DNA from: Podarcis pityusensis
Lineage: Eukaryota
Assembly: GCA_964106645.2 (NCBI GenBank)
Contig: OZ067041.1
Reading direction: 5' to 3' (one strand)
Length of the DNA: 64,000 nt
The notes below the pieces were generated by a model. That model saw only the letters and a list, made by a program, of their open reading frames with translations. It did not search any database and was not told the origin of the DNA. The translations under genes and the position numbers were made by a program. Positions 4,257 through 63,611 of this stretch are shown here, in pieces (the first letter of the stretch is position 1; the number at the start of each line of letters is the position of its first letter).

Positions 4257-5076
4257 CCATATTTTTCGCTCTATAAGACGCACTTTCCCCTTCCTAAAAA
4301 GTAAGGGGAAATGTGTATGCGTCTTATGCAGCAAATGCAGGTGGGAGGCTCTGTCAGTGCTCCCTTTAAAGAGCCGTGTGGAGCGTGTGTGTGGCTCTTG
4401 GGGGCTTTTCCCACCTCAGGAAAAGCCCCCAAAAGTCACACACACGCTTCACACGGCTCTTTAAAGGGAGCGCAGCTCTTGGGGGAGCCTTAGCCGCGCG
4501 CAGCCAGGACAGTGAGCGGGATGGATCCCTCTGGCTGTCTTGGCTTCTGCCATAGCTGGCGCAGCCTCTCCCGGCCAGAGAGGCTGCCCGCGGCTAAAGA
4601 AGCCAGGACAGCGAGCAGGATCCTGCTGGCTGTTCTAGCTTCTGGCTTAACCAAGGGATGAAATCTCCGCAGGGGAGCGGGGAGCCTTCATCCCGCTGCC
4701 CTGCGAAGGCTTCCTGTGGTTATCCCTGGCTTCTGTGCGAGGTGGGGGAAGGGGCAGAGCGTGCGCTCTGTCCCTTCCCCCACCTCCCAGAAAAGCCCCC
4801 AAGAGCCGTGCTCCCTTTAAAGAGCGCACGGCTCTTGTGGGAGGAAAGCCAGTAGGCTTGCTTTTGCTGAAGCCAGGAGGGCAAGAGGGATCAGTGCGCA
4901 CCAATCCCGCTTGCTCTCCTGGCTTCAGGGGTAGCCCCGCAAAGCCTCCTGAGCGAAGATAGAGGAGCGCTCCCTCTTAGCTCAGGATGCTTTGCATTCC
5001 TTTCTTATTTCTTGTTTTCCTCCCCTAAAAACTCGGTGCGTCCAATCCTCAGGTGCGTCTAATAGAGCGAATACGG
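4257..5076. mobile_element. Non-autonomous Tc1/mariner-superfamily (Tc2-like) DNA transposon with internal hairpin array
   Basis: TA-flanked TIRs cc(a/g)tatttttcgctctataagacgca / tgcgtctaatagagcgaatacgg; GC-rich interior with multiple inverted repeats. Confidence 0.8.
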
Positions 5077-8223: not shown

Positions 8224-9465
8224 TATTTCATTGGGAGGATTAAAGCTATGTTTATGGACAAATAGATGGAAAGAAAAATAACTAGATTGACGTTTAACCC
8301 TGTAATTAATGAATATGTGTGTAAGCACATATGTAATTTGTGAAATTATATTTAAATGCCAAGTGAGGAATTATTGTTAATTCATGGTGTTTCTTTATCC
8401 CTTCAAAAACATTCTATATCACTCCGCTGAAGTAGGAGAAACATATATATTGATAGTGCTCTAAGCTGTCTGTATGCTACTAGACAAAACAGCATTTTGT
8501 ATGCACAAGAGGGAGGCATTAACAGGTGTGTGTGGTGGAGGAGGAATCCTAATATTTTGCAGAAGCAGCCTGTGTTTTGGATGACAAGGGGAAAAAATCT
8601 TTATAAAAAAATATCCCCGGGGAAACCCCAGCCACACACACACAAAATACTTAATGAGGAATGAGCATGCTCAGTGGGCACTGAATGCTAAGTACACAGT
8701 GGTGGAAAACAGTAGAGGGATGAGAAATAACATGGAGTATCTGAAATCCCGATCAGATGATACTATTTGTAACAATTACTAGCCATCATTCTACTGTGGC
8801 CAATTCTGTGAAATTTATAATCGACAAAATGTGTGGAAGCATGTGAAATAATAGGAATAAAAGAACAGACTGGGAAGGATATCTTTCCCGGTCAGAATCC
8901 AAGCCAGATTCAGGGATCCTTGCTGGAAAGGAATTATTTCTGGACCAGGACTACCAGATTCTAGTAGGTTCTAACCTGCATGGTTGGGAGCAGCTGAATT
9001 TAGTTGAGGGCTCCAGATGTTAGAGCTACTTGTTCAATAGCAACAGAAATGGGAAAAACTTGGTTCAAACAGATACTGTGTATGGAAGCTGGTTGTCTAG
9101 GACTGGGGAAAAAGAAGACTCCAGCTGCTGCTTCTGCTGCTCCAAAGATGGCTGTGGCTCAAGGCAGCATTTGTAAGAAAGGCAGCCTGGCATCTGGCCT
9201 CATACATGCACTATGGCAGTGCCAAGCTGGGGGGTGGGGTGGGGAGAGCTGGACACTCGGCTGCTTAAGCCCATTGCTCAATTTCCTCTGCCTTCTGCAT
9301 TTTTGTGGCACCCACTCTCCAGTCCTGTATTCAGTGCATAGGTAATGCTTACAGTAGTTGCCATTTTGAAGTCAGGTAGGATGGGGGGGAGGCTGTCAGC
9401 TGATTGCTCTTGCTGGCTGGATTTTTGTCTACTTTGCACTGGTTTGGTGACCGGTGCCTTTAGCA

Positions 9466-9813
9466 GGTAAGGTAAAGGGACCCCTGACCATTAGGTCCAG
9501 TCTCTGACGTCTCTGGGGTTGCGGTGTTCATCTCGCTTTATTGGCCGAGGGAGCCGGCGTACAGCTTCCAGGTCATGTGGCCAGCATGACTAAGCCGCTT
9601 CTGGCGAACCAGAGCAGCACACGGAAACGCCGTTTATCTTCCCGCTGGAGCGATACCTATTTATCTACTTGCACTTTGCTTTCAAACTGCTAGGTTGGCA
9701 GGAGCAGGGACTGAGCAACGGGAGCTCACCCCGTCGCGGGGATTCGAACTGCCGACCTTCTGATCGGCAAGTCCTAGGCTCTGTGGATTAACCCACAGTG
9801 CCACCCGCGTCCC
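9466..9813 (-). mobile_element. Full-length Sauria SINE
   Basis: Runs ggtaaggtaaagggacccctgacc ... gccacccgcgtccc; matches the other copies. Confidence 0.93.
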
Positions 9814-12658: not shown

Positions 12659-14902
12659 CTATAACTAGTTCGTCCAACATGTGGGATAAAAGGCAGAAGC
12701 ATTGCACTGAGTGGGGCAGAGCCATTTCGCTACCTTGTTGGCAAGTGGGTCCCTGGGTACAAATGCACCAGTGGAGCCAATCTGATGCTCCTGCTGGTAT
12801 GTTTGCATATACCATATGGACCTCTCCACCACCTCTGCCCTCCACCTCTTGATAAGCAACAGTGACTCAACTGCCGGGAAGCTAGGATAGCAGCTCTGCC
12901 CCACCCAGACAGTCACTTGCAGTAAAATGTATCCGTGTGATGTGATTAATTCTGTATTCTCTAACATCACAGACCATTGTGAATACGGCCCTTGAACTTC
13001 TCCCAAGGGTAAAATCGGCAAAGGATAATGAGCTCCCACACAGCAAACAAAAAATAAAAGACAATAGGCAGGAATGTTTTTTTAATTTAAAAAATGGCTT
13101 TTTATTGAAAATAAGGTCATAAATTTTGGAGGAATGCAAATGCTAATGAGGCTGCTACTGGATTGTGAGCACTTTGAATAATTCTGTTAACGTGCTGGGG
13201 ACAAAAAATTGGCAAGCCACTGTCAAAAAAACTTGATGGCTTAGTTGCTCGCTCTGCATAATACACAACATACTCTTATTTTTTGATGTTGATGGGATAT
13301 TATCATGAATTATCATAAAAGTCAAATTGGTTTGCCAACAGCATTTTAAAAGCTGGCATGTCAGCCATCAATAAGAGCGACTCTATCACATTTTCTGCTG
13401 CTATTTTTAGAACAGAGTTTACTTCTAATCAAATGAAAATATGTTACAAGGACTTTTTATAGTTTGCAAGCCCAGCTCCATAAATAAAAAGGCTGAGTAA
13501 CTTTGTAGTAATCACTCAAGATAGTTTTTAACCTTATTAAAATGTGAAGGTACAGGTTGGTACTACTTCATACTTTGAGTACTACATGGATGGTCTGATT
13601 CACCAAAGGAGAGTAGCACCTGCCTTTTTTTTTTGCTGAGGGAATAAACCCATTAAAGAGGCTGCTACATAGGAAATAAACAGGCAGTCACCAACCTGAG
13701 GTTAATTTGTCAGGAGCTGCCAGCTCTGTGTGCAGGTAGCTCCCTAATGCGGTGAACCTAAAAGATGGCCTCACTCTTTATATACCAAACCAACCACTGC
13801 ACTCTGCAGAAGAGGACCTTCTGCAGAAACCATCTCAACAGGGTTCCTGGTCCATATGGCATACCTTCTAGGTGTCCTGATTTTCCAGGGACAGTCCTGG
13901 AATTACAAAAGCCACCCTGGTTTCTGATTTGAACTTGGAATGCACCTATTTCCCCCACCAGTGCCACCATGCCTGAGCTTGAGGAGGAGGATGAGCTTGT
14001 CCCCAGCAACAGCAGCTGCAGCGGCTGAGAAGGAGCATCCTGTTGCCTCTCCACCGTCCCTTGGGCAACTTGTAGTGGCTGCTGGAGAGCGGGTGAGGAG
14101 GAGGAGAGGCTGTGGCCACCGAGGCCTAGCTCCATGTGATGCACTGGCTGGGCAGGAAGGAAGTCGAAGTGTAACAGAACGCAAGGAGTCTTGATTTTAA
14201 AAAAGAGAAAAGAATCTTTGTGCATCTTCATCTAAGCTAGGCCGTCTCTAAAAGTTGTGTACTTTTCTTTCTCTAAATCTACCAAAGAATAAAATCAAAT
14301 CAGGATTAAGGAGTTTTCTCAGGATGGTGGAGGACGTGTGTGCTGTGCCCTATTCATGAAGTGGTATAGGCACTTGCCCTTCTTCCAATAGTAAATGTTC
14401 TGTGTGGGGACAGGGGCTAAAAATGGGGGGTCAAGGAGAGTCAGTTGGTAAGGGAGTGAGAAATGTTCCTATTTTCTTCAGAGGGTTGTTGGATGGTATG
14501 ATATGGTCCAGGAATTGGGCCTTTAATATGGTGACATTGCACAGATACAGTCTCTATTATCCTCTCATCACCTATTGAAGACCTTCCTTTTTCTAACAAG
14601 CCTTTCAAGTTGAAAATTTTCATCCCAGTTTGTGTCTGTACTGACTGGACTTGATATGGTTTTCTATATATGTTTGTGATTCCCACACAGAGCTTTGGGA
14701 TGTTTTATAGGAAGCAATAAATAAACCTTTGGACTGCAGGTAGCAGCTTCTCAGTGAAATACTTCCAGTCTCTGGACTAACTCTTGCCCACGCAGACTGG
14801 CTATTGGACCTGCCCTGGAAAGGAAGGAGCAAAAGATGACTTCCTGTTCTGTTTAGCTTTGCACAAGCAAGCAGGTCTGACTAAGCTCTGGTGTTTCCTG
14901 TA

Positions 14903-15130
14903 CAGTGGTACCTCGGGTTACATACGCTTCAGGTTACATATGCTTCAGCTTACAGACTCCGCTAACCCAGAAATAGTGCTTCAGGATGAGAACAGAAATT
15001 GTGCTCCGGTGGCGCGGCAGCAGCAGGAGGCCCCATTAGCTAAAGTGGTGCTTCAGGTTAAGAACAGTTTCAGGTTAAGTACGGACCTCCAGAACGAATT
15101 ACCGTAAGTACTTAACCTGAGGTACCACTG
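14903..15130 (+). mobile_element. Tigger/pogo-like MITE family A
   Basis: TA-flanked TIR cagtggtacctc...gaggtaccactg; four copies in the window. Confidence 0.9.
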
Positions 15131-15761
15131 TATTGTTGCCCCCTATTTTGGACCTCAGGCTTGCTCCTGCCATTGTGTTGCTTCCTGAACCTAGGCAACA
15201 TCGCCATAACACCTCTGCCTCTTGCATTAGTGCTGGTTGCTTCTACAGAAAGTGAAGATTTGGATGAGAATTTAACAAACTAGGGAAACGAAGCTGTAAT
15301 GAATCTAGCAATTATGAAGTTGGCCCATTACTGTATGAATGCCTGTCTTGGAAAACACATCAGCTTCAGTTTGTGCTCTGGGAACAATTGTGTGAGTTAG
15401 CAACACCGCTTTCCTCATTCATGCAATTAGTGCAGAGAATTAATATATGCAGTGTCAAAAACAGTACCCTAAATGGAGACTAATGATGCTTGATAATAGG
15501 CCCTTGATGGGGCTAACCTTACTTTTCACTTCACGCCCTGGTGTCAAATGTATGCAAAAAGGAAAAAAGAAATTTAATAGCAATTAATAGTGTGCTAATC
15601 ATTATATCATGGAAACTGCCATACCAAATATAAATCAAATGTGTATTTGGTCATCTCTTATTAAAGGATGCTCCATTAATCTTGTGTTCCAGGTACATAT
15701 GCATACTGGTCCAGATTTGGTCGTACATCCTTTTTTAAATGCTGTGCGTCACATTTAAGTA

Positions 15762-17658: not shown

Positions 17659-17884
17659 TAGTGGTATCTCAGGTTACATACGCTTCAGGTTACAGACTTG
17701 GCTAACCCAGAAATAGTGCTTCAGGTTAAGAACTTTGCTTCAGGATGAGAACAGAAATCGGGCTCTGGAGGCACGGCAGCAGCAGGAGGCCCCATTAGCT
17801 AAAGTGGTGCTTCAGATTAAGAACAGTTTCAGGTTAAGAACGGACCTCCATAACGAATTAAGTACTTAACCTGAGGTACCACTG
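17659..17884 (+). mobile_element. Tigger/pogo-like MITE family A
   Basis: TA TSD, TIRs and an interior matching 14903-15130. Confidence 0.9.
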
Positions 17885-18639
17885 TACGCAGTTGTGCTTT
17901 TTTATTTTATTTTATACTGACATAGGTTTGGCATTGTTTATTTTTAAAAATGCTGTTCCAGCTTTCTTTCTTTCTTAAAAAAGTCTATGACCTGCTTTTA
18001 GTTTTGTCTGAGGGCAGAAAAATGAAAAGCCCCAAACTCCCTGGAGCTTTTGTAATCAAGGGGTGCATACTCTCCAAAGTTTCTCCGATGAAAACAGGGA
18101 CATCTTATTGGAGTGTGAGGTTGGCAGTGAGGAGATAGTCAAAGGCTTTAAAAATGTAGTTAGTCTGGAACTGGGCAGTTCAGGGTGGAACTCAGTGTGA
18201 TATGAAAAAGCATCAAAGATACTAAGAAAGGAGAGAGAAAATTCTGCTTCAGAATAATTTTTTTTTTCCAGAGTCTGGTAAAGTGAGTGACTATTTGAGT
18301 TCAGGGAAAGTGGATGGTGTTTTAATCTACTTATTTTTGTTGTTTTGTTCCATTTGGGAATTGGCAAGATTCCTGTAACTTCCCCTTATAATATATTTCT
18401 CCTAAAACTCGATGTTTCCCCCCCTTAGTAAACTTTTAGCTTTTACTTACTCCATAAAGCTAAAAATGCACTACCTTGACTGACTTAGGGGAGACCCTAG
18501 GGAAGTCTTCAGGTGGGCTGATAAAGTGCAGCCTTGTAGAAATAATTTCCCCTCTTTATCTGGTGGCAAAAAGTATGTAAATGGGGAAGGGGGGGTGCAT
18601 ACTCTCAAAGCAGTATCCTGGAAATTACAAGGGGAGCGC

Positions 18640-19705: not shown

Positions 19706-20273
19706 CAGAGCTTTCAAAACTTTTCCTGTTGGTGACACACTTTTGTACATGCATCATTTTGCAACACAGGACGCGGGTGGCGCTGTGGGTTAAACCACAG
19801 AGCCTAGGACTTGCCGATCAGAAGGTCGGCGGTTCGAATCCCCACAATGGGGTGAGCTCCCGTTGCTCGGTCCCTGCTCCTGCCAACCTAGCAGTTCAAA
19901 AGAATGTCAAAGTGCAAGTAGATAAATAGGTACCGCTCTGGCGGGAAGGTAAATGGCGTTTCTGTGTGCTGCTTTGGTTCGCCAGAAGCGGCTTAGTCAT
20001 GCTGACCACATGACCCGGAAGTTGTCTGCGGACAAACGCCGGCTCCCTCGGCCAATAAAGCGAGATGAGCACCGCAACCCCAGAGTCGGTCACGACTGGA
20101 CCTAATGGTCAGGAGTCCCTTTACCTTTACCTTAATTCACTTTTATTAGCAAACCGGAAGTTAAACTAACCCCTTTCCAGTTCCGGGAGAAGTGTGGGAA
20201 GTGTTTGTGCGACACACCTACACACTGCAGCCAATACGCTAATGTGTTGCGCCAAACAGTTTGGAAAGCTCTG
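19706..20273. mobile_element. hAT MITE with 8-bp TSD, containing a Sauria SINE
   Basis: TIRs cagagctttc(a/c)aaac; TSD ctttaagg at 19698-19705 and 20274-20281. Confidence 0.85.
19769..20133 (+). mobile_element. Full-length Sauria SINE
   Basis: Runs ggacgcgggtggcgctgtgggttaaacc ... ccctttacctttacctt. Confidence 0.93.
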
Positions 20274-21122: not shown

Positions 21123-21558
21123 TTTCCCAATAGTGATGTATGGAAGTGAGAGCTGGACCATAAAGAAGGCTGATCGCCGAAGAATTGATGCTTTTGAATT
21201 ATGGTGCTGGAGGAGACTCTTGAGAGTCCCATGGACTGCAAGAAGATCAAACCTCTCCATTCTGAAGGAAATCAGCCCTGAGTGCTCACTGGAAGGACAG
21301 ATCCTGAAGCTGAGGCTCCAATACTCTGGACACCTCATGAGAAGAGAAGACTCCCTGGAAAAGACCCTGATGTTGGGAAAGATGGAGGGCACAAGGAGAA
21401 GGGGACGACAGAGAACGAGATGGTTGGACGGTGTTCTCGAAGCTACCAGCATGAGTTTGACCAAACTGCGGGAGGCAGTGGAAGACAGGAGTGCCTGGCG
21501 TGCTCTGGTCCATGGGGTCAGGAAAAGTCGGACACGACTTAATGACTAAACAGCAACA
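21123..21558 (+). mobile_element. Bov-B (RTE) LINE 3' fragment
   Basis: ORF MYGSESWTIKKADRRRIDAFELWCWRRLLRVPW...SRTRLND, (CAA)n tail, 11-bp TSD atatatccaac (21112-21122 / 21559-21569). Confidence 0.95.
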
Positions 21559-21926
21559 ATATATCCAACAGTGGCTTTCCTCTAGTAGAAAGCACTGCCT
21601 CTTGTGCAAGACATGACACTGGATTTTCAGCCATTTCCCTTGTCAAAGGCAACTGTCTGCACCATATCCCTTGCTTTTTTGAAGTGTCCCCCAACCCCCA
21701 GAAGCTGCTTTGGGGGACTGCAGTGCATGAGAGACACAGTGTCACACATTGGGTGCTCATCCTTGAGTGAACGGATATGTTTTCCCCAGATGCAAAATCA
21801 TTATTGGATGCAATCTGTTGCAAGCTTCCTCATCAAGGTGCCCACCCAATGTTATGTCCTACTACTCTGATCAAGTCTAACCTGTGTGGCTAATGGTTGA
21901 TGATGATTGGAGTTAGAATCCTACAG

Positions 21927-29468: not shown

Positions 29469-30045
29469 ACAAATGGCTGTACCAACAACCATGACAAGCA
29501 TGACAGCAGCATGGGAAACAAGGTCAAATCCAGTCCATCACCATTTTGCAGGAGCGATTCAAGCACATACTGGAAATTGAGGTTTGCACAACTGAAGCAG
29601 ATTAAAGTGCTCCGTTGCCCTAGTGCAACAAATCTACTTTATTTTTTTTAAAAAATAAATGGGCTTTTTGCTGTTAAGAAAGTGATGGGAAAATGCACTG
29701 GAAAGTGTGGGATGAATGTAATGACAAGACATGGGCACACCCTGAAGCAAAATCATAATGAACGCTTATTGTCGTAAAACTCAGGTGGGAGGGGTATAAA
29801 TAATACAGTTATTAATTGAAATCATTAACCTCCCTGCAAACAAATCAGAACAAATGCTCAATCCAGAGCGAACATAGCCTCACCTGCACAAAAGCTTTGT
29901 ACAAGCAGATCAGGATGAATGCTCAATAAAGTGGTTGCTTGGTGGGGACTCAAGTGAATTGCCAAAGGGAATAATAGGAAAACTAAGACTCATTTTAAAA
30001 CTAAAGAAAATAATACAATTAAGAACCTGTGAAATTTTCCACGTA

Positions 30046-30267
30046 CAGTGGTACCTCAGGTTACATACGCTTCAGGATACATACGCTTCAGGTTACAGAC
30101 TCCGCTAACCCAGAAATATTACCTTGGGTTAAGAACTTTGCTTCAGGATGAGAACAGAAATCGTGTTTCGGCGCTGCGGCAGCAGCAGGAGGCCCCACTA
30201 GCTAAAGTGGTGCTTCAGGTTAATGGACCTCCGGAACGAATTAAGTACTTAACCCGAGGTACCACTG
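30046..30267 (+). mobile_element. Tigger/pogo-like MITE family A
   Basis: TA TSD and cagtggtacctc TIRs. Confidence 0.9.
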
Positions 30268-30883
30268 TATATGGAGAGGCACAATTTTGTGCTGATATTG
30301 CATTATCCCAAAGGCTAGCAGCTTCCATCACTTCCTGTTATGGTTTGGCTAGTTGTAAAATTGGTCCTACGAATGTGCCAATTGCAGGTGTACATTATGA
30401 TACAATCTACTTCTTGAAGAATTGCAGGAGACAGTAGTTAGCGGTTTGTGTTGAAGCATTCAGAAAGCTGCCTCAATAGACACAAATGCTCTGTCAAGCA
30501 ATAGGTATGCAATTTCCTCACAATTTTGTATATTACTTGTATCCTAAATTTATAATTTAGGATTTTGTACTTAATCCACAAATCTGTTCCATTGGTGGGT
30601 TCTTGGATTTAATGTTTCTTGTACAAGATGCTGGCAGGACTGCCTCATGCTGGCAACACAAGGTTGAGTTTTGTGTACCACAATCTGTACAAAATCAGGA
30701 AAGTAGGAAAGTAGGTACACATGTGGAAGCCATAAGCAGAAGATGCATGAATATTCTTGGAGATGATGCTATAAATGCCATAGGATGTTGGACTCCCAAC
30801 TCCTATCGGCCCCAGTCAGGATGGCCAATAGTCAAAGATGATGGAGTTGTGGTTCAGCAACATCTGGAGAGAACTACATTAGC

Positions 30884-32630: not shown

Positions 32631-33517
32631 ATTCCGAAGCAGCTGAGCCTTTTATGATTTGCTTTATAATTTATGAGCTTTGAATGTTGGCATTGCTACA
32701 CACAGATATTCCCCCCATGAGGAATACTAGATTGCACTAATCTGTCAATCAAGAAGCCTGTGATTTTTCTTTATTGACCAGTAAGTTACTTGCAATTTGT
32801 TTTCTTAACACAAAAATCATAAAATCTAGAGAGGGAAAATACTTTCTCTGACACCTAATTCATCTTGCTTGCTAGGGCAGCACAGTTTCCCTTTGATCAT
32901 TAATCTATTAGTGATATTTTCCCCATAAAGTTTCAACGGTGCTCAGCAATGGAGCTCCCATAACTTACAGTGAAACGTCCTTCTTCTCTGGTGGCATTTT
33001 GTGATTGTATCTCACTAGAAAAAAACAGGGAAATGCTCATCTTGACAATGAATGTCAAGATGACTACTAAAACATTCAATGTAAGATGTAGGAAGAAGGA
33101 TAGATCCTTTCACTCAATATATGGTAATTTCTTTATATGTGTATTTACCATATGTATGGTGATCATCTAATAATCTGTATACTTCTATCTCATGGCCTAA
33201 ACAGACCCAATGCACAAGATCCATGATCAGATCAGATGTTATTTTATTTTGTCATTTTAAGGCACTTTCAATGGACTCCGTTGGCAGCGGGCTGGGGGGA
33301 AGGGAGGTGTTTAACCTTTTCTCGCCAAACCATTTCTTCAATATTAATCTCTGTGAAGGGATCAAAACGTCTGCAAGTTATACCGTACCTGAGGTCTTTC
33401 TGAGCTCAGGTGGGTATACTGGCTTTCTGTTTGGTCCTAACTTCTTCCTTATTTCTCAGTCCTGCCTTTGGCTTTGCTCTTCATTCCTGACTGCTCCCTC
33501 AACTCCATCTCCTCAGA

Positions 33518-34035
33518 GTATTGCGGAAGAATGATGTCAATCAACAATTGATGATCTCCTTCTACCGGTCAACAGTAAAAAGTGTCCTTTCATACTACAT
33601 CACGGTGTGGTACGCTGGTTTGACATCATCTGATAGGAAGTGCCTACAGAGGGTGGTGAATACAGCACAAGATATTATGGGCTGTCCCGTGAATCCACTG
33701 GATGAAATAGCAGAAGAACGCTGCCTCAGGAGAGAGAGGAAAATTCTCAGGGATGATTCACACCCTGGCCAGCACTTTCTTGATCTCCTGCCCTCAGGCA
33801 GAAGATATAGAAGCATGATTAGTCGCACCAACAAAGTAAAGAACAGCTTCTATCTGTGGGCTGTTAGGCTGCTGAATGAAAAGATAACAAAAGGGCAACA
33901 GACTTTCGGGTTTGGTGTGCGTGCATCAGTAAATGAGGGGAATTAAGACTAAGAGAGCTGAGTGGGGGTGCTCGTGTAATCTCATTGTATACAAGTTGTA
34001 CAAGTGACAATAAAGTATTTCAATTTCAATTTCAA
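33518..34035 (+). mobile_element. Rex1/Babar-clade LINE 3' fragment
   Basis: ORF FYRSTVKSVLSYYITVWY...LQRVVNTA...DDSHPG...LLPSGRRYRS...NSFY..AVRLLN; AATAAA and (TTCAAT)n tail. Confidence 0.85.
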
Positions 34036-34168
34036 CTTCCCAGCTCCTGGGCTCCTGGCTCCTCACTCATCTCAAACAGCTGCCTACAGTCTAGTCAATA
34101 GCACTCATTGGGTAAAATAAAAAAAATCCTTCCAGTAGCACCTTTAAGACCAACTAAGTTAGTTCTTG

Positions 34169-34206
34169 GTATGAGCTTTCGTGTGCAAGCACACTTCTTC
34201 AGATAC
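34169..34206 (-). ncRNA. Minimal type I hammerhead ribozyme in the Penelope pLTR (left arm)
   Basis: Reverse complement of 36030-36067. Confidence 0.75.
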
Positions 34207-34386
34207 ACTGAAACAGAAGTTGCCAGATCCTTCTATATAGTGAGAAGGTGGGGAGGGGTATTACTCAGAAGGGTGGTGGGAATGGGAGATTGGCAGATAG
34301 CTGAGATGAGCCTGCTGACGACTCTTAACGACTGTAATAGGTCTTACAGGAAAAGGCAAGGGGTGAGAAGGTGAGAAATGGCTTAG

Positions 34387-35058
34387 TCATGTATAATGGG
34401 ATAAGAATCCAATGTCTTTGTTCAAACCAGGTCTCTCCATGGTTTTAAGTTTGGTAATGAGTTGCAATTCAGCAGCTTCTCTTTCCAGTCTATTTCTGAA
34501 ATTCCTTTGTAGTAAAACAGCTACTTTGAGATCTTGTATAGAATGTCCTGGGAGATTGAAGTGTTCTCCTACTGGTTTCTCTGTTTTGTGATTCTTGATG
34601 TCAGATTTATGTCCATTTATTCTTTGGCGTAAGGTTTGGCCTGTTTGTCCAATATAGAGAGCTGAAGGACACTGTTGGCATTTGATGCCATACACAATGT
34701 TAGATGATGAGCAACTGAATAGTCCCGAGATGGTATGTGTGATGTTGTTGGGGCCAGTAATGGTGTTGTCCGGGTGTATGTGGCAGCAAAGTTGGCATCT
34801 GGGTTTATTGCAGGCTCTGGTGCCAGTGTCCGTGTTAAGTCTGGTTGTAGTATTATTGTGGGTTAGGAGTTGTTTAAGATTGGGTGGCTGTCTGTAGGCA
34901 ATGAAAGGTCTTCCTCCCAGAGCTTGAGAAAGAGAACTGTCATTGTCCAGGAGAGGTTGTAGATCTCTGATGATGCGTTGTACTGTTTTAACTTGGGAGC
35001 TGTATGTGATGACTAGAGGTGTTCTGTTATTTTCTTTTTTGGGTCTGTCTTGCAGCAA
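34387..35058 (-). CDS. Penelope ORF C-terminus: RT thumb/linker plus GIY-YIG endonuclease (5'-truncated)
   Basis: CxxxRCxxC motif, NIVYGIKC...LYIGQT, LRQRINGH, REAAE and GLN motifs. Confidence 0.88.
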   Translation of the reverse strand: MLQDRPKKENNRTPLVITYSSQVKTVQRIIRDLQPLLDNDSSLSQALGGRPFIAYRQPPNLKQLLTHNNTTTRLNTDTGTRACNKPRCQLCCHIHPDNTITGPNNITHTISGLFSCSSSNIVYGIKCQQCPSALYIGQTGQTLRQRINGHKSDIKNHKTEKPVGEHFNLPGHSIQDLKVAVLLQRNFRNRLEREAAELQLITKLKTMERPGLNKDIGFLSHYT

Positions 35059-35177
35059 GTTCTCTCTGGGTATAAGTCTGGCTCTGTTGATCTGTTGTCT
35101 AACTTCATCTGCTAAAATACCCAGCAGATGAAGTTAGACAACAGATCAACAGAGCCAGACTTATACCCAGAGAGAAC

Positions 35178-35849
35178 TTGCTGCAAGACAGACCCAAAAA
35201 AGAAAATAACAGAACACCTCTAGTCATCACATACAGCTCCCAAGTTAAAACAGTACAACGCATCATCAGAGATCTACAACCTCTCCTGGACAATGACAGT
35301 TCTCTTTCTCAAGCTCTGGGAGGAAGACCTTTCATTGCCTACAGACAGCCACCCAATCTTAAACAACTCCTAACCCACAATAATACTACAACCAGACTTA
35401 ACACGGACACTGGCACCAGAGCCTGCAATAAACCCAGATGCCAACTTTGCTGCCACATACACCCGGACAACACCATTACTGGCCCCAACAACATCACACA
35501 TACCATCTCGGGACTATTCAATTGCTCATCATCTAACATTGTGTATGGCATCAAATGCCAACAGTGTCCTTCAGCTCTCTATATTGGACAAACAGGCCAA
35601 ACCTTACGCCAAAGAATAAATGGACATAAATCTGACATCAAGAATCACAAAACAGAGAAACCAGTAGGAGAACACTTCAATCTCCCAGGACATTCTATAC
35701 AAGATCTCAAAGTAGCTGTTTTACTACAAAGGAATTTCAGAAATAGACTGGAAAGAGAAGCTGCTGAATTGCAACTCATTACCAAACTTAAAACCATGGA
35801 GAGACCTGGTTTGAACAAAGACATTGGATTCTTATCCCATTATACATGA
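35178..35849 (+). CDS. Penelope ORF C-terminus: GIY-YIG endonuclease (mirror copy)
   Basis: Same 223 aa as the minus copy except one S/N difference. Confidence 0.88.
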   Translation: MLQDRPKKENNRTPLVITYSSQVKTVQRIIRDLQPLLDNDSSLSQALGGRPFIAYRQPPNLKQLLTHNNTTTRLNTDTGTRACNKPRCQLCCHIHPDNTITGPNNITHTISGLFNCSSSNIVYGIKCQQCPSALYIGQTGQTLRQRINGHKSDIKNHKTEKPVGEHFNLPGHSIQDLKVAVLLQRNFRNRLEREAAELQLITKLKTMERPGLNKDIGFLSHYT

Positions 35850-36029
35850 CTAAGCCATTTCTCACCTTCTCACCCCTTGCCTTTTCCTGTAAGACCTATT
35901 ACAGTCGTTAAGAGTCGTCAGCAGGCTCATCTCAGCTATCTGCCAATCTCCCATTCCCACCACCCTTCTGAGTAATACCCCTCCCCACCTTCTCACTATA
36001 TAGAAGGATCTGGCAACTTCTGTTTCAGT

Positions 36030-36067
36030 GTATCTGAAGAAGTGTGCTTGCACACGAAAGCTCATAC
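36030..36067 (+). ncRNA. Minimal type I hammerhead ribozyme in the Penelope pLTR (right arm)
   Basis: GUAU-CUGAAGA-A-GUGUGC(UU)GCACAC-GAAA-GC-UC-AUAC gives the core, stem II, stem I GUAU/AUAC and a palindromic AGCU stem III. Confidence 0.78.
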
Positions 36068-36221
36068 CAAGAACTAACTTAGTTGGTCTTAAAGGTGCTA
36101 CTGGAAGGATTTTTTTTATTTTGACTATGGCAGACCAACACGGCTACCTATCTGTAACTGGACTCATTGGGTAGATTTTGATGCAGGGCCGTTCAGGGAT
36201 ATCTACTCAAATATTGTGGGA

Positions 36222-36372: not shown

Positions 36373-37092
36373 TCCTCTCATTCGACTTTGTTGCGAACAT
36401 TGACCAACACTGGTTCCATCTTACTTTGAAATATATCTTTCTATTCTGGTGCAATGTCTAAAAGGACAAATTATAATCTACAGGAGTGTTGTGTGTATTG
36501 CTGCAAGCAGAAGAGAACTGGACTGAGTTTAATACCATGGAGCAATTTTGAACTGATTTACTATGCTAGATTTTTTTTTTTTTTTGGTGCTTTTACAACA
36601 ACATTAATTCTCACACACTGCTGCCTTGACATTAATTACTTTGCAACAAAGACAAATGATCTTTGCAAACTGCTTGGTGCCATGCATGTATTAACAGAGG
36701 CTGGCCAGTGGCATGTGGATCAGAAGTAGGGTGGAAATTCAACTCATTACGATAATGAAGTAGCTTGCCAATACCTGCTAGGAAAGTGACAAGTCTGCAA
36801 GGTGAATAAAGACCACCACCAAAGCTTTACCTCCTTGAAACCCACTCACCCCCTGGGAGTGTGCTTTCTTAATTGTGGACTTTACCATGCCCAGCCCATT
36901 AATTTTGCGCAGATAAATAAATAAACCTTCCCTCATGCTGTGGTTGCAGCGTTAGTCTCCCCCCCCCTTGCCTAGTGCTGCTGGGTTTTATAAAGGGCTA
37001 TTTCTTTAGTGCTAGATCCTCAGCAGTACACTCTTAATAATGCCTACTCAGAGGTTAGCCCCACAGAGATAAATGGGACATACTCCCAAGTA

Positions 37093-37273
37093 TAGTCGTA
37101 CCATGGAAGTTGAACAGAATCCATTCTGGAAGTCCGTTCGACTTCCAAAACGTTCGGAAACCAAAGCGTGGCTTCTGATTGGCTGCAGGAAGCTCCTGCA
37201 GCCAATCGTAAGCCCCGGAAGCCCCGATGGATGTTCGGGTACCACTGTACATTCAAAAACCGAGGTACCACTG
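37093..37273. mobile_element. Tigger/pogo-like MITE family B with duplicated right end
   Basis: ta|tagtcgtacc ... ggtaccactgta occurs twice; interior shared with 38370-38597 and 61950-62203. Confidence 0.8.
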
Positions 37274-38369: not shown

Positions 38370-38597
38370 AATCTTGGTTCTCAAATGCCTTCTGACTCGA
38401 ACGTTTTGGCTCCCGAATGCCACAAATCCGGAAGTAAGTTTGCAAACGTTTTTTATAAGCCGAATGTCCAACGCAGCTTCTGCTTGAGTGTAGGAAACTC
38501 CTGCAGCCAATCGGAAGCTGCACCTTGGTTTCCAAACGTTTTTGGAAGTCGAACAGACTTCCGGAATGGATTCCGTTTGAGAACCAAGGTATGACTG
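38370..38597. mobile_element. Tigger/pogo-like MITE family B (left TIR lost)
   Basis: Ends aaccaaggtatgactg followed by TA; shares the cctgcagccaatcggaagc core. Confidence 0.75.
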
Positions 38598-39469
38598 TAT
38601 ATCTATCTATCTATCTATCTATGGATGCAGCTGCTCATCGGGCTCCATTCAGGTATAAAATAGGGATGGACAGTTTAGTATATTTCCAGTCTGTGTCAGT
38701 TTTGCATGTGTTCATTCGTAAATCCTTTCTGTTCCATTTCTGCAATAATCTGGGATTCTTTTTTTATTTTAGAAAATCCATAGAAAAAATTGCATTTAAA
38801 TACATAGAGTTTATCTTCACCTGCCCCAGCTGCCCCAAAACATGTCTCTTTTGTGTTGGTCTCTACAGACATAGCAGGCGCTGAATCTTCCAACAGTTTG
38901 ACTTCACTTCCAAAGGCGCACTCCTCCCAAAACAGATGGAGGCCAACAAGTTTATCACAACATTTTAAAATATGTATTTTATCTCCATGTTGGCATTTCT
39001 AAAAAGAAATCCCTAAAATATGCATTTTAAAAACTTTTCTGGGTTCCATTTCTAAAGCCAAGAATGCATTGCAAAAGTGTGAGATTCAAAGGATAATTAT
39101 GTCCCTTGTATGCATACCGTGAAATAGGTTGGTTTGCTTAAAAATGTGGAGAAAACACAGTTTTGCTCCAGCCTTACTTAGGTGTGTTAGGTTGCAACCC
39201 GAAAATTTCTCCTGTACCTTTCAATTTACCACTGAATCAGGAGACCAGGTAGTCGTCCCTTATTCCATTCGCACACCCTAGTTCTGTAACCTGTTGGTTC
39301 TTCTGGTCTCTCATCTACTGAAAGGAGAAGGACACAAAGTGCTTCACAGCCAGAACAGGAAGGGGAAGATGACGGGGCTCAACAAGGGCAGAAAGCTGAC
39401 TGGAAAACACCACCACTAATACTTTGTTCCCAGTTCAGAGCTAGATTTAAAAGGCATTGGGTGGATTTC

Positions 39470-41640: not shown

Positions 41641-42315
41641 AATGCTGCATTCATAAATGGATATATTCATCTGCACATAAAACCATGCAAATCTTCATGT
41701 GGACTTTTCATTTTAAAAAACCATAAGCTGTGATGTGAAAACAGAACAAAATGAAGTTTGGAAGAAATGAGTAACTGAGAGAAACCAAGGATGGATCTAC
41801 ACGGACCTGTTTAATGTTGTTAGGATGATATTAGAGATATCATTCCAAAATGTCACAGGGCAGTCTTGTAATTTAAATTGCTTCTTACCTTGTTTTTGTC
41901 CGTCAAAAAGCTGTTTCCCTATTGCTAGTTCCTGGTTGCTCTGCATCACCCTCTGGTGTCCCATTTTAATATTGCCTTATGAACTTTAAAAGCAGAACGT
42001 AATGTGTCCATCTATGTTATGAAAACCATTCCTTAACCCTTAACATTATAAACCATGAGTGTAGATCCATCCCAAGACTGACAAATTTATCAGGTGAAAC
42101 ACACACCTGTCATTGATCAACCCAACCAGATGGGTGGGGTATAAAATCATCATCATTGGGGATTATGTGAGTTTAACCCAACAAAGTCTGGAGAGCCTCA
42201 GTTTCCCTCAACCTTCTTGTAGGCCTAAATATCTTGAGCACAGCTGTCTCTGTGCTTAGGACTGCTCTTCTCCCTCTTGTCAGTCCTTCTAAATCTCTAG
42301 GCAAGGAATCTTGTA

Positions 42316-42557
42316 CAGTGGTACCTCGGGTTGAGTACTTAATTCGTTCCGGAGGTCTGTTCTTAACCTGAAACTGTTCTTAACCTGAAGCACCACTTTA
42401 GCTAATGGGGCCTCCTGCTGCTGCCCTGCCGCCGAAGCACGATTTCTGTTCTCATCCTGAAGCAAAGTTCTTAACCCGAGGTACTATTTCTGGGTTAGCG
42501 GAGTCTGTAACCTGAAGCATATGTAACCTGAAGCATATGTAACCCAAGGTACCACTG
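42316..42557 (-). mobile_element. Tigger/pogo-like MITE family A, opposite orientation
   Basis: TA TSD and TIRs; reverse complement of 17659-17884. Confidence 0.9.
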
Positions 42558-43608
42558 TACCTTTGAATGCTTTCGCCCTGCTGGCTTGGAATATTGTTTG
42601 TAACCATTTCAGCAAAGGCCAGCTGTGCCCATTAAAGCATCTATGATTTCCTATTGCTGCGCAGGTTTCTCTGCAGGCGTTTTAAATAACCCGAAAAATG
42701 TCCTGCAAATACCTAGGGCATTTATAATATTAAATAAAATTTACCTTTTAATCTCCTGCAGTTGATGTAATTTTATAAATAGGAACCAGAAACTGGGGTG
42801 GGGAATGACCTGCAGTATGAATCATTTTGCAAAGCTGACAAGAATCAGCCAATAAAATACCTAAGGCAGAGTTCCCATAGATGCCGGTAGGGTCGATGGA
42901 AACTGAAAGCACATTACTAAGGTTTTCAGGATAGCCTCAATTGTTTCAGATTGATTTTTAAAGTTGTTGTTACAGGCAGTTTCTCATAGCCCAAGTATGG
43001 AACTGAAGTAAGGTTGTCATGAAAAATCCATTAATAACTAAATATGATTAGGTTCCCTTTAGGGTACGCACAGAAACAGCACAACGCTTACCTTGCAACC
43101 TCCCAAAGGATAATTAAATTTCAGCTGCTAGCCTTTCCAAAACACTTTCCCAAGGAAAGCCTGTTAAAAAATAATTTGCATGGGCAGATATATATATATG
43201 TTCAATTCTACTCTTAAAATTGATGAAGGCAGATACACCCTGACTAGAAAGCTTTTGTGATGCAAAATCAGAACCCCAAGAAACTGGAATAATGGATCTG
43301 GCTGAAGACACTCAGCAGTGGTCCTAAAATTCGTCAAAGGCCAGAAGTCCACTCCAATCCCTTGGCTGATACAGAAGAACATTCTTTCAACATTACATGG
43401 GGATAGACAGCTTTGCTGCTGCTTCAAGCTGTGTCTAGGCTTCTCTCAGCTGTTCGGTGGTGTTCCTTTTCTAGTCTCAGACAAAATGCGCCATGCGAAT
43501 CATGCATTCCTGGGAAGGAAAAATATCTCTGTTGGCTCATGCAAGTTGGCTCATGCAAGGCACTCAAAAAACCACAACTGGGCTACATGTTTCTCTCATC
43601 ACACAGGG

Positions 43609-45583: not shown

Positions 45584-46095
45584 CTTGTTGTTGTTTAGTC
45601 GTTTAGTCGAGTCCGACTCTTCGTGACCCCATGGACCAGAGCACGCCTGGCACTCCTGTTTTCCACTGCCTCCCGCAGTTTGGTCAAACTCATGCTGGTA
45701 GCTTCAAGAACACTGTCCAGCCATCTCGTCCTCTGTTGTCCCCTTCTCTTTCTGCCCTCAATCTTTCCCAACATCAGGGTCTTTTCCAGGGAGTCTTCTC
45801 TTCTCATGAGGTGGCCAAAGTATTGGAGCCTCAGCTTCACGATCTGTCCTTCCAGTGAACACTCAGGGCTGATTTCCTTCAGAATGGATAGGTTTGATCT
45901 TCTTGCAGTCCATGGGACTCTCAAGAGTCTCCTCCAGCACCACAATTCAAAAGCATCAATTCTTCGGCGATCAGCCTTCTTTATGGTCCAGCTCTCACTT
46001 CCATACATCACTACTGGGGAAACCACAGCTTTAACTATACGGACCTTTGTTGGCAAGGTGATGTCTCTACTTTTTAAGATGCTGTCTAGGATGTA
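45584..46095 (-). mobile_element. Bov-B (RTE) LINE 3' fragment
   Basis: Open ORF LDSILKSRDITLPTKVRIVKA...SRTRLND, (CAA)n tail, TSD agcagagctt (45574-45583 / 46096-46105). Confidence 0.95.
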
Positions 46096-57740: not shown

Positions 57741-59274
57741 CTATGTCCAGATGACTTTTCCAAATTGCCCACCCTGTTTGTGGGCGGAGTAATTGAGGGA
57801 GCCATTTCACCACACTTCTCCAGCGAGAGGAGAAATTTTCCCACTGTTTCAGTCCATGACATCATCTAGTCTGGAGTTGGTGCCAAACAAGAGACCTCTG
57901 TGCATAGCAGGAGCAGAAGTTGGGCAAAGAAATTCAGTAGGAAGCAAGCCCAAGTGACATTATAGCCTCACCGCTCCCTTTCCTGGTCTATCTGCTGAGT
58001 TACTGTTTGGCATGGAGTCTTCTCTGACTTCTCCTTCTTGAAAGCATGAGAAGAGCTCTGATGGATCAGGTCAAAGGCCTATCTAATCTAGCATCGTGTT
58101 TTCACAGTGACCAACTAGCACTATGGGAATTGCTGAGGGCAGCTTCGCTCTCCTCAGTTGTGATTCCAAGCAACAGCCATTCAGAAGTATATTGCCTTTG
58201 ATGGTGGAAGTAGTACATAGCCATCATGGCTCACAACAGTTTACTTAAATTCTTTGGTTGGGAAAATTAGGGAAATGACATAATGGACAGCTCTGTTTTC
58301 TTTAAGTACGGCAAAAGAGAAACAGGTACACACTCCTGCCAGCAGGAGGAATTTCTATAGGAAGGAGAAGTTTGGTTTGCTACTGCTGTATAAAGAGAGA
58401 GAGATCAATAGAGGCAGACCAACAATCAAAACATCAAGGGGAAAATCAACACTAAGCCTATCTATTTTCTTCCATAATCAGTTTGTTGTGCAGCAGTAAA
58501 GTGTTAAACAGAATGCTCTATAGAGAGGAAAAGTGAAGACTATAGGAAGGAAACTGATATGTAGCACCTTCAGTTACCCGGTGAGAGACATAGTGGATTC
58601 TTTTTGTCCTAAGGGAGTGACCATAGAGCAGCATTCGCCAACCTGGTGCCCTTCATATGTTTTGCGCTACAACTTCTAGCAGTCTGATATGGACGGCACC
58701 TGGTTATAGAATATTGTTCTAGAGGAACTAAGAAGAGTAGAAAGAGATCAGGGATATGCTTTGAGAAAGAGATAAGTTTGCATGGAAGAAAAGGCTCTCA
58801 AGAAATACGCTTTTCAACAGTTTCCAAAATGAACATGAAACGAGGCATATTGTTTTGTCTCAGATCTAGATAGACATCATTGGAAGAAAGTAGCTGCCAA
58901 TCTTCATCTACTTCTGGAAGCTACATGTGCTCTGCCATATTATGCAACTGATTTTTTTTAATGGGTTTACTGCCTAAGTCTGGATCCAACCTTCAGCTTA
59001 TAAATTACTGAAATCCTAATACAATAAAACAACAATATTAACCACTATGCCAAAAGTCATTAGTGAAAAACTGGGTGAGGGATTAAACAAATTAAAATGT
59101 CTGGGTAAATAAAAACATCTTCCCCCCCCCCAAACACATATGAACAACAAAAACAGAAGAACAAACAATACAAAAAAATTCTTGTCTTGTCCTTATTTTT
59201 TCTAAACATTGTTGGGTGAGCTTCCCTAAGTTCCCCCTATCTGATTTTCATTTTAACTCATCTTTAGCAGATTA

Positions 59275-59628
59275 GTAAAGGTAAAGGGGCCCCTGACCAT
59301 TAGGGCCAGTCGTGGCCGACTCTGGGGTTGCGGCGCTCATCTCGCTTTATTGGCCAAGGGAGCCGGCGTACAGCTTCCGGGTCATGTGGCCAGCATGACT
59401 AAGCCGCTTCTGGTGAACCAGAGGAGCGCACGGAAATGCCGTTTACCATCCCGCCGGAGTGGTACCTATTTATCTACTTGCACTTTGACGTGCTTTCGAA
59501 CTGCTAGGTTGGCAGGAGCAGGGACTGAGCAACGGGAGCTCACCCCGTCGCGGGGATTCGAACCGCTGACCTTCTGATCAAGCAAGTCCTAGGCTCTGTG
59601 GTTTAACCCACAGTGCCACCCGCGTCCC
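59275..59628 (-). mobile_element. Full-length Sauria SINE with 13-bp TSD
   Basis: TSD ctttagcagatta (59262-59274 / 59629-59641). Confidence 0.95.
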
Positions 59629-59981
59629 CTTTAGCAGATTACATATATCATAATTTTTAACCATTTATATATATATATATATATAAACATCTTAACCTGG
59701 TACCACAAATATTGTAAAGCAAAAGCACCACCAATGAAGAAACCCTCTTCTTCATATGTACTTCAAACCATGCACTTTTGAGAAGAGCAACACTTAGGGC
59801 AGGGCCTGAGTTGAGGATCTTAAGACATAAGCAGGCTGGTATATGAAGAGGTCTCCCTCTCAGGTATTTAGTTACAGATTTTAAATGTAAATCTCAGCTC
59901 CTTCAATTGGACCCAACAGTGTAGGCAACCATTGAAGTTCTTCAATGATTTGAGCATTATGAGCAAACCTGGTGGCACCAG

Positions 59982-62860: not shown

Positions 62861-62900
62861 CTGGTGTCCAGTTATTTGGGTTATTTGACAGTCTATAAGT

Positions 62901-63244
62901 GACGCGGGTGGCGCTGTGGGTTAAACCACAGAGCCTAGGGCTTGCCGATCAGAAGATTGGCGGTTCGAATCCCCATGATGGAGTGAGCTCCCGTTGCTTG
63001 GTCCCTGCTCCTGCCAACCTAGTAGTTCGAAAGCACTTCAAAGTGCAAGTACATAAATAGGTACCGCTCCAGCAGGAAGGTAAATGGCATTTCTGTGCGC
63101 TGCTCTGGTTCGCCAGAAGCGGCTTAGTCATGCTGGCCACATGACCTGGAAGCTGTACGCCGGCTCCCTCGGCCTATAGAGCGAGATGACCCCAGAGTCA
63201 TCAGTGACTGGACCTAATGTTCAGGGGTCCCTTTACCTTTACCT
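62901..63244 (+). mobile_element. Full-length Sauria SINE
   Basis: gacgcgggtggcgctg...ctttacctttacct; flanking repeat taagtgac (62896-62903 / 63245-63252). Confidence 0.93.
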
Positions 63245-63611
63245 TAAGTGACATACTTGAAATTGCATCTGAACTGAGTTGCATTGCATGAGTTTTTCAG
63301 GCCTTTATTCACCACTCACCACATTGCTTTCTCACTTGTTGCATAAGGCATTGACAGAATTTTCATTTGACCATTTTTGAAGTAGCAAGCAGAATGTTCT
63401 TGCCTAAGTACAAATATATCCCAGGCAGAGGAAAAATGGGGAAATGTGCACCTTTCAATAACATTGCCTGTATTTTGACAGAAGACTTTATAAAATAAAA
63501 ATAGCTGAACATCCATTTTATCTCAGACACTATTGCTGTTTAATGAAATCTTGGACTAAATATGAAAAACAATTTCCAGACATTGTAATGCTAGGTAACG
63601 AAGATAAGGTC

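What the first reader, a model, noticed from the sequence alone, without database searches (positions are those of the whole stretch)
34103..36173. Near-perfect 2-kb palindrome formed by a single Penelope insertion
Seen: two 1000-bp arms (34114-35113 and 35123-36122) mirror each other with no net indel around a 9-nt spacer (aaaataccc). I noticed one substitution, at 34715/35521 (S/N). Only the right arm has the 39-nt 3' tail, and one 12-bp TSD encloses the whole unit, so it arose in one event. Established: Penelope elements often carry an inverted, tail-less terminal repeat. Unusual here is that both arms truncate at essentially the same point and both keep an intact GIY-YIG frame, which suggests fold-back of the cDNA. 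Inference: a cruciform-prone, unstable site, and a 1-kb dsRNA hairpin if transcribed in either direction (siRNA or ADAR substrate that could silence its own family).
Basis: partly seen in the sequence, partly recalled or inferred. Interest (0 to 1): 0.75.

Follow-up and report, generated by a model that had tools for sequence, protein, structure and literature searches.

The report
Folded-back Penelope-like retrotransposon insertion
This is a real-looking, very young insertion of a reptile jumping gene whose unfinished DNA copy seems to have folded back on itself, leaving a 2-kb mirror image; the layout is a known habit of this transposon group, though this copy shows the fold-back joint unusually clearly.

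Summary
Observation confirmed: 1000-bp arms (34114-35113, 35123-36122), one mismatch, 9-nt spacer, 39-nt tail on the right only, one 12-bp target-site duplication. It is a 5'-truncated Penelope-like element of the Neptune type (CX4CxxC linker, GIY-YIG, minimal hammerhead), host probably a squamate. New here: the spacer is the element's own coding sequence. A 99.6%-identical RT+EN relative reads E-L-K-Y-P across it, so the right arm is the longer, primary copy and the left arm starts after a 9-nt loop closed by 2-3 bp: a snap-back signature. Both arms share a residue absent from 81 relatives; the one mismatch is derived on the left. The layout (head-to-head inverted copy, palindromic junction, one-sided 30-40-bp tail, TSD) is published for these elements, with self-priming proposed (PMC3846280, PMC8557442), so it is not unusual in kind. 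The 'intact GIY-YIG frames' have no start codon and no RT. No transcription evidence; inverted-copy siRNAs are already known in Drosophila; a 9-bp spacer is past the fragility threshold in yeast. Reads and other copies could not be checked. New member of a known kind; interest 0.3.

The parts
34103..34114 (+). Left copy of the target-site duplication (12 bp; last base shared with the left arm, so 11-12 bp)
   Evidence: identical to 36162-36173, only two occurrences in the window
34114..35113 (-). Left arm: inverted, tail-less copy of the element's 3' 1000 nt; inferred secondary copy
   Evidence: 999 of 1000 complementary to the right arm
34169..34206 (-). Minimal type-I hammerhead motif, left arm
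   Evidence: descriptor match; 0 of 200 shuffled windows gave a match
34208..34347 (-). Mirror copy of the putative 140-nt retained intron
   Evidence: mirror of 35889-36028; inference from sequence only
34387..35113 (-). Open but start-less remnant of the ORF (thumb end, linker, GIY-YIG)
   Evidence: (239 of 241 residues identical to P0002)
34715..34715 (.). The single arm mismatch; derived state (Asn to Ser) is on the left arm
   Evidence: P0002 has Asn; of 13 hits at 70% identity or more 11 have Asn, 1 Lys, 1 does not cover, none Ser
35111..35113 (.). Junction microhomology: 2 bp most likely (35112-35113 with 35123-35124), 3 bp if the upstream Glu codon ends in G
   Evidence: P0002 reads E-L-K-Y-P where the window reads L-L-K-Y-P; inference from codons
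35114..35122 (+). 9-nt spacer = native element coding sequence present once; inferred snap-back loop
   Evidence: chance of encoding K-Y-P about 6e-5
35123..36122 (+). Right arm: sense copy, native from about 35112; inferred primary cDNA
35112..35849 (+). 5'-truncated ORF remnant (residues 341-585 of P0002); RT core absent, only Met at residue 229
35424..35450 (+). CX4CxxC linker motif (Neptune/Nematis diagnostic)
   Evidence: definition in PMC8557442
35541..35588 (+). GIY-YIG core with two internal cysteines; holds the Gly codon (35547-35549, mirror 34687-34689) shared by both arms
   Evidence: 0 of 81 covering relatives have Gly, 69 have Ala
35889..36028 (+). Putative retained 140-nt spliceosomal intron ending just before hammerhead helix I
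   Evidence: only GTRAG and only pyrimidine-rich AG match in 35847-36161; same placement reported for D. virilis Penelope; not shown to be spliced
36030..36067 (+). Minimal type-I hammerhead motif, predicted cut after 36063
   Evidence: architecture as in PMC4209133; no Rfam hammerhead hit
36123..36161 (+). 39-nt tail, right side only
   Evidence: 30-40-bp one-sided tail is a published PLE feature
36162..36173 (+). Right copy of the target-site duplication

Best explanation
A single, recent retrotransposition of a Neptune-type Penelope-like element. The element's GIY-YIG nuclease nicked both target strands 11-12 nt apart (inferred from the TSD). The bottom-strand 3' end primed reverse transcription from the tail end; the cDNA stopped after about 1050 nt, at 35111-35112. 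Its free 3' end folded back through a 9-nt loop held by 2-3 bp and was extended on the cDNA itself, making the mirror strand. That strand was joined to the left target end at the tail-less boundary, most simply by annealing to a second cDNA primed from the top-strand nick at the element's second initiation site, 39 nt inward (or by nuclease trimming there). Repair filled in both strands. The product is the ordinary 'inverted pLTR next to direct pLTR plus tail' with no full unit in between, so the whole insertion is a palindrome. It is dead on arrival: no RT, no start codon. Shown: anatomy, native spacer, arm polarity, shared residue. Inferred: order of steps, the enzymes, the second priming.
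For: One TSD around the whole unit and unrelated flanks. Spacer continues the element's reading frame as in P0002 (chance 6e-5), which is the geometry a snap-back must leave: loop once, stem shared. Terminal hairpin is marginal (+1.8 kcal/mol with 2 bp, -0.4 with 3 bp), as expected for polymerase-assisted priming. Two independent truncations within 12 nt have a chance of 0.4-4% for mean lengths of 3000-300 nt. Both arms share Gly where 0 of 81 covering relatives have it, so both come from one template. Both junctions start with antisense element sequence directly after a target 3' end (sequence). The anole enzyme PAc cuts and extends both strands and starts RT at two sites that bound the tail (PMC11167929). 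cDNA snap-back before 5' joining is documented for R2-protein TPRT (PMC11371274 passages). Palindromic inverted junctions are recurrent in PLEs (PMC3846280).
Against: One locus only, picked because it is striking, so the small coincidence probability is inflated by selection. End-joining of two cDNAs through the same 2-3 bp gives an identical junction. The native DNA upstream of the junction was not obtained, so stem length rests on codons. Whether 36122 is the family's fixed tail-less end is untested. PAc is a Poseidon-clade enzyme; this element is Neptune-type. A shared residue also follows from two cDNAs of one source copy or from later gene conversion. No reads were available.
Confidence: 0.6

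Rival explanations
1. Twin TPRT without snap-back: both nicks prime separate cDNAs (one from each initiation site), both stop at nearly the same place (same broken RNA end or a lock-step dimer), and their 3' ends are joined through the 2-3 bp microhomology.
For: PAc extends both strands, has two start sites and is predicted to be a dimer. Explains the one-sided tail with no extra step. The left-arm A-to-G difference could be an independent RT error or RNA edit.
Against: Needs a reason for co-termination within about 12 nt (0.4-4% if independent); nothing in the sequence marks this position as a fixed stop that I could test.
Confidence: 0.2
2. Self-priming on an antisense RNA template before integration (model of Arkhipova et al. 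2013), the hairpin product then being inserted by the nuclease.
For: Proposed for head-to-head palindromic junctions and intron retention; a putative intron is retained in both arms.
Against: The later in vitro work shows target-primed synthesis on sense RNA with starts that match genomic ends; both ends here match that pattern. Intron retention also follows from unspliced sense RNA, which the same paper allows.
Confidence: 0.1
3. Sequencing or assembly fold-back artefact, or a mis-join of two near-identical repeat copies.
For: Fold-back reads make up about 0.55-0.6% of ONT genomic reads (PMC12870357 passages); young repeats are mis-assembled; the sequencing platform is unknown and reads were not available.
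Against: A fold-back read mirrors everything, tail and flank included; here the mirror stops at the tail boundary and different flanks follow. A mis-join would not leave a unique 12-mer in direct orientation on both sides. One arm mismatch exists. The same paper saw virtually no fold-backs in HiFi data.
Confidence: 0.05
4. Older or two-step origin: arms first differed, or were inserted separately, and were later made identical by gene conversion or hairpin-mediated repair.
For: Inverted repeats can homogenise (established knowledge, recalled); conversion would also explain the shared Gly.
Against: TSD is intact at 12 of 12; the arm is 243 of 244 residues identical to an RT+EN-bearing relative, so it is young regardless; a second insertion would bring its own TSD.
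Confidence: 0.05

Closest known systems
EN+ Penelope-like elements with inverted pLTR, e.g. Pen2a_Av and Pen2_Av of Adineta vaga (PMC3846280, sections 6 and 11 read in full)
   Same: Inverted copy directly next to the direct copy at the 5' end, short overlap at the junction (15 bp, inverted copy 37 bp shorter in Pen2a_Av), 31-bp tail on one side, 9-10-bp TSD around the whole unit; self-priming proposed.
   Different: There the pLTRs are about 200 bp and a full ORF lies between the outer repeats; here the repeat is 1000 bp and nothing lies between, so the whole insertion is a palindrome. Overlap is only 2-3 bp.
Neptune clade of PLEs (features from PMC8557442 passages)
   Same: C-terminal GIY-YIG with two internal cysteines, CX2-5CxxC linker, hammerhead in the pLTR, tandem/inverted insertions, 30-40-bp tail.
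   Different: Clade assigned by motif only, no RT tree built; target is not a microsatellite here.
PAc, Poseidon element of Anolis carolinensis (PMC11167929, parts 1-2 of 4 read)
   Same: Reptile PLE with hammerhead and tail; two RT start sites and both-strand priming fit the two ends here.
   Different: Different clade (Penelope/Poseidon lacks the linker motif); the word 'inverted' occurs once in that paper, for a blocking nucleotide, so it does not treat inverted insertions.
cDNA snap-back 5' junctions in R2-protein TPRT (PMC11371274 passages)
   Same: cDNA 3' end primes synthesis on its own cDNA before 5' joining, giving antisense sequence at the upstream junction.
   Different: Other retroelement class, engineered system; no tail, no second initiation site.
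Rearranged Penelope copies with long inverted repeats in Drosophila (PMC3681739 passages)
   Same: Long inverted repeats; siRNAs mapped to the inverted regions in D. melanogaster transformants.
   Different: There transcription and siRNAs were measured and said not to silence Penelope efficiently; nothing of the kind is shown for this locus.

Membership tests
EN+ Penelope-like element | C-terminal GIY-YIG endonuclease with two cysteines inside the core (CCHH type) | tested here: met
   Pfam GIY-YIG above cut-off; core with CxxC and downstream His residues
EN+ Penelope-like element | RT upstream in the same ORF | tested here: inconclusive
   Absent from this truncated copy; present in P0002 (PF00078; 243 of 244 shared residues identical)
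EN+ Penelope-like element | Hammerhead motif in the pLTR | tested here: met
   Own descriptor finds exactly 2 sites in the window, one per arm; 0 of 200 shuffles. No Rfam hammerhead model matched. Cleavage not tested.
EN+ Penelope-like element | 30-40-bp tail on one end only | tested here: met
   39 nt; whether the boundary is the family's fixed one could not be checked
EN+ Penelope-like element | 5' truncation with inverted or tandem pLTR arrangement and variable TSD | tested here: met
Neptune (or Nematis) clade | CX2-5CxxC motif in the RT-EN linker | tested here: met
   CX4CxxC at 35424-35450; 67 of 84 fetched relatives match a like pattern; definition
Neptune (or Nematis) clade | RT phylogeny placing it with Neptune rather than Nematis | not tested
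Penelope/Poseidon clade in the strict sense | Absence of the CX2-5CxxC linker | tested here: not met
   Motif present
TIR DNA transposon / MITE / foldback element | Inverted repeats at both termini next to the TSD, DDE transposase or none | tested here: not met
   Right arm ends 39 nt short of the TSD; arms are retroelement ORF sequence
Hairpin-RNA (endo-siRNA) or miRNA locus | Transcript across both arms and processed small RNAs | not testable with these tools
   Rfam miRNA matches at the centre are far below gathering scores (49 against 97 bits) and reflect the palindrome; no expression data
Fold-back read artefact | Mirror continues into the flank; no TSD | tested here: not met
   Mirror identity 0.245 outside the arms, unique direct 12-mer; reads themselves not testable

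The most novel reading that the evidence does not exclude
This locus is a clean fossil of how all inverted pLTRs are made: both target nicks prime cDNA at the element's two initiation sites, the longer cDNA snaps back through a short loop, and the snapped-back strand bridges to the second cDNA. If so, every abortive insertion of this class yields a perfect palindrome, reptile genomes hold many kb-scale ones, surviving copies should be enriched for loops of 9 nt or more, and the element makes its own double-stranded RNA silencing triggers. That joins the published two-start-site biochemistry with the published inverted-repeat anatomy into one testable model; I did not find that link stated in the passages read.
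Probability: 0.35. Interest if true: 0.55.

Novelty: new member of a known kind. Interest (0 to 1): 0.3.

Why it matters
As a single locus it is an inert, young transposon fragment with no sign of function. Its value is as a mechanistic specimen: how Penelope-like elements form tandem and inverted repeats is named as open in PMC8557442 (section 15), and the steps after first-strand synthesis are called unvalidated in PMC11167929. The junction here (native loop, 2-3-bp stem, one end at each side of the tail) gives a sharp, countable prediction for a genome-wide survey and for the existing in vitro system. A practical side point: such palindromes can be misread as TIR elements, miRNA hairpins or assembly errors.

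Tried and rejected
Other copies in the window: none by blastn or tblastn. DNA relatives to read the native junction: none in genome contigs by protein; one exact 21-mer in a bacterial contig (L001) does not extend and is expected by chance (0.27 expected), rejected; no match in plasmids or phages. No eukaryotic DNA collection was searched; viral and metagenome contig collections stayed unchecked. The cluster members of P0002 could not be looked up, so whether the shared Gly occurs in other family members is known only from the 84 fetched proteins, many of them isoforms of a few loci. Search for other fold-back junctions inside predicted proteins: 0 of 84 had an antisense-frame match to the arm (the 4 non-frame-1 matches were sense frames), uninformative because most are spliced gene models. 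Host gene: 168 of 172 stop-to-stop frames of 75 aa or more were scanned against Pfam (the 4 left out are alternative frames inside the arms); apart from GIY-YIG and one ALKBH8_N match, only three matches below curated cut-offs; short exons and non-coding transcripts would be missed. Empty-site continuity through an older repeat: 3 of 3 other copies of the repeat right of the insertion do not reach the target site, so untestable. Tail folding: no significant structure (z -0.57 to +1.46). First hammerhead scan found nothing because of a loop-size bug, fixed. Sigma-70 scan is irrelevant to a eukaryote and was ignored. Rfam miRNA and snoRNA hits rejected as palindrome effects. An ATT motif lies 1 and 3 nt beyond the two inferred nicks, like the PAc preference, but is too common to count. 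Figures and the GenBank supplement of PMC11167929 could not be seen; they may bear on where the two start sites lie.

Full report
OBSERVATION. The arms 34114-35113 and 35123-36122 are complementary over 1000 nt with no indel and one mismatch, 34715/35521. The spacer is 35114-35122. The right arm alone continues into a 39-nt tail (36123-36161). A 12-mer at 34103-34114 recurs at 36162-36173 and nowhere else in the 64 kb on either strand; its last base is also the first base of the left arm, so the duplication is 11 or 12 bp. Outside the arms the mirror identity is 0.245 over 200 nt. It is by far the youngest-looking repeat in the window: the next longest pairs are 94.5% and 87-90% identical. Arm divergence is 0.1% (Poisson 95% range 0.025-5.6 differences per kb).

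WHAT IT IS. Each arm is the 3' part of a Penelope-like retroelement. The frame matches Pfam GIY-YIG above cut-off. Homologue searches returned 38 longer and 46 similar-length proteins: the nearest is P0002, a 585-aa RT+EN protein from an unnamed source, identical at 243 of 244 shared residues; the nearest named ones are from lacertid lizards (74-86%) and turtles (mostly 56-66%), so the host is probably a squamate (inference). The linker holds CX4CxxC (35424-35450), which PMC8557442 gives as present in Neptune and Nematis and absent from Penelope/Poseidon (passages); I therefore call it Neptune-type, by motif only. Each arm has one minimal hammerhead motif (36030-36067 and 34169-34206); my descriptor found exactly these 2 in the window and none in 200 shuffles; the architecture is that of PMC4209133 (parts 1-2 of 4 read). 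A putative 140-nt intron (35889-36028) ends just before the hammerhead, the placement reported for D. virilis Penelope; splicing is not shown. The copy cannot be autonomous: it starts at residue 341 of P0002, past the RT catalytic motif at residue 225, and its only Met is residue 229 of 245. The 'intact frames' reflect youth, not selection.

THE JUNCTION. P0002 reads E-L-K-Y-P-A-D where the window reads L-L-K-Y-P-A-D on the right and diverges at once on the left. So the spacer is the element's own coding sequence, present once (chance of encoding K-Y-P about 6e-5). The right arm is native from about 35112; the left arm begins 9 nt further 3'. Bases 35112-35113 belong to both (2 bp; 3 bp if the Glu codon ends in G; at least 1 bp). 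That is the footprint of a strand end folding back through a 9-nt loop. The terminal hairpin is marginal (+1.8 or -0.4 kcal/mol), so it would need a polymerase to hold it. Two more facts bear on origin. Both arms encode Gly at a site where 0 of 81 covering relatives do (69 have Ala; 3 of 84 do not cover; many rows are isoforms of few loci), so both arms derive from one template. At the mismatch, P0002 and 11 of the 13 hits at 70% identity or more have the right arm's Asn and none has Ser, so the change is on the left arm.

MECHANISM. Read from each target 3' end, both junctions begin with antisense element sequence: from the tail end on the right and from the tail-less end on the left. The anole element PAc nicks and extends both strands and starts RT at two sites that bound the tail (PMC11167929, parts 1-2 of 4 read). 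Snap-back of cDNA before 5' joining is documented for R2-protein insertions (PMC11371274 passages). Best model (0.6): the right cDNA aborted, snapped back, and its mirror strand was joined at the tail-less boundary, probably by annealing to a second cDNA primed on the left. Twin cDNAs joined by the same microhomology give an identical sequence (0.2) but need co-termination within about 12 nt, 0.4-4% by chance; this number is weakened because the locus was picked for its symmetry. Self-priming on antisense RNA (0.1) is the published model. An artefact (0.05) is unlikely because a fold-back read would mirror tail and flank and could not create the direct duplication; fold-backs are about 0.6% of ONT genomic reads and virtually absent in HiFi (PMC12870357 passages); reads were not available.

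COMPARISON WITH WHAT IS KNOWN. PMC3846280 (sections 6 and 11 in full; passages) describes as typical an inverted pLTR adjacent to the direct one, overlapping it by 15 bp and 37 bp shorter, a 31-bp one-sided tail and a 9-bp TSD, and infers self-priming from recurrent palindromes at the inverted junction. PMC8557442 (passages and section 15) and PMC8969392 (passages) repeat the layout. PMC4209133 notes hammerhead pairs 100-700 bp apart on opposite strands in Schistosoma, which fits short palindromic insertions. This locus is that layout with a 1-kb repeat and no full unit between. Nine literature searches (listings only, except the papers named) showed no nucleotide-level survey of junction symmetry and no report on reptile whole-insertion palindromes; the library lacks most subscription papers, including the older PLE reviews cited, which may hold such cases. 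Passages of bioRxiv 10.64898/2026.07.22.740005 (supplements not seen) and PMC9977147 added nothing.

No host exon was found (168 of 172 long frames scanned), and the arms' sense directions point outward, so a pLTR promoter in sense would not read across the centre (inference); a hairpin RNA needs read-through or antisense transcription, for which there is no evidence here. siRNAs from inverted Penelope copies are known in Drosophila and were reported not to silence the element efficiently (PMC3681739 passages). In yeast, Alu inverted repeats with a 9-bp spacer gave 80% fewer breaks than a perfect palindrome and no fork pausing, 8 bp being the transition (PMC8053094 abstract and passages); those arms are shorter and the host differs, so the site may still be fragile, but 'cruciform-prone' is not a given.

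VERDICT. Real-looking, correctly described, mechanistically neat, but a new member of a known kind. Interest 0.3. The most novel reading still open (0.35) is that twin priming plus snap-back is the general route to inverted pLTRs, which a survey of this family's junctions would test directly.

Noticed in passing
window 35889-36028 (+) and 34208-34347 (-): Putative 140-nt spliceosomal intron retained in both arms, acceptor ending one base before the hammerhead motif.
   Followed up: partly
proteins P0003-P0005, P0007, P0030, P0039, P0041, P0060: Zootoca vivipara gene models (three LOC ids) join a PF00619 domain (CARD, name recalled) to this family's endonuclease region at 80-86% identity: exonisation or possible recruitment of a PLE nuclease.
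   Followed up: no
window 33491-33943 (+): 151-aa open frame with an ALKBH8_N match above cut-off, 160 nt left of the insertion; looks like the C-terminal end of a LINE-type RT (recalled, not tested).
   Followed up: partly
window 21123-21559 and 45585-46021: 437-bp pair, 94.5% identical, opposite orientation, 24 kb apart; no Pfam match in its frames.
   Followed up: no
window 9458-9813, 19769-20135, 59262-59634, 62893-63247: About 360-bp interspersed repeat family, 87-90% identical, with older copies near 900-1500.
   Followed up: no
window 14900-15133, 17669-17887, 30043-30270, 42314-42560; 37091-37213 with 38476-38599: About 250-bp family with terminal inverted repeats (MITE-like), and a related inverted pair 1.3 kb apart.
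   Followed up: no
window 4359-4928: Cluster of five short imperfect palindromes of 46-113 bp.
   Followed up: no
window 35983-36161 (+): One frame is open across the hammerhead and tail and has a Met just inside the tail region, as expected if the next ORF starts within the pLTR; no fetched protein carried this N-terminus.
   Followed up: partly
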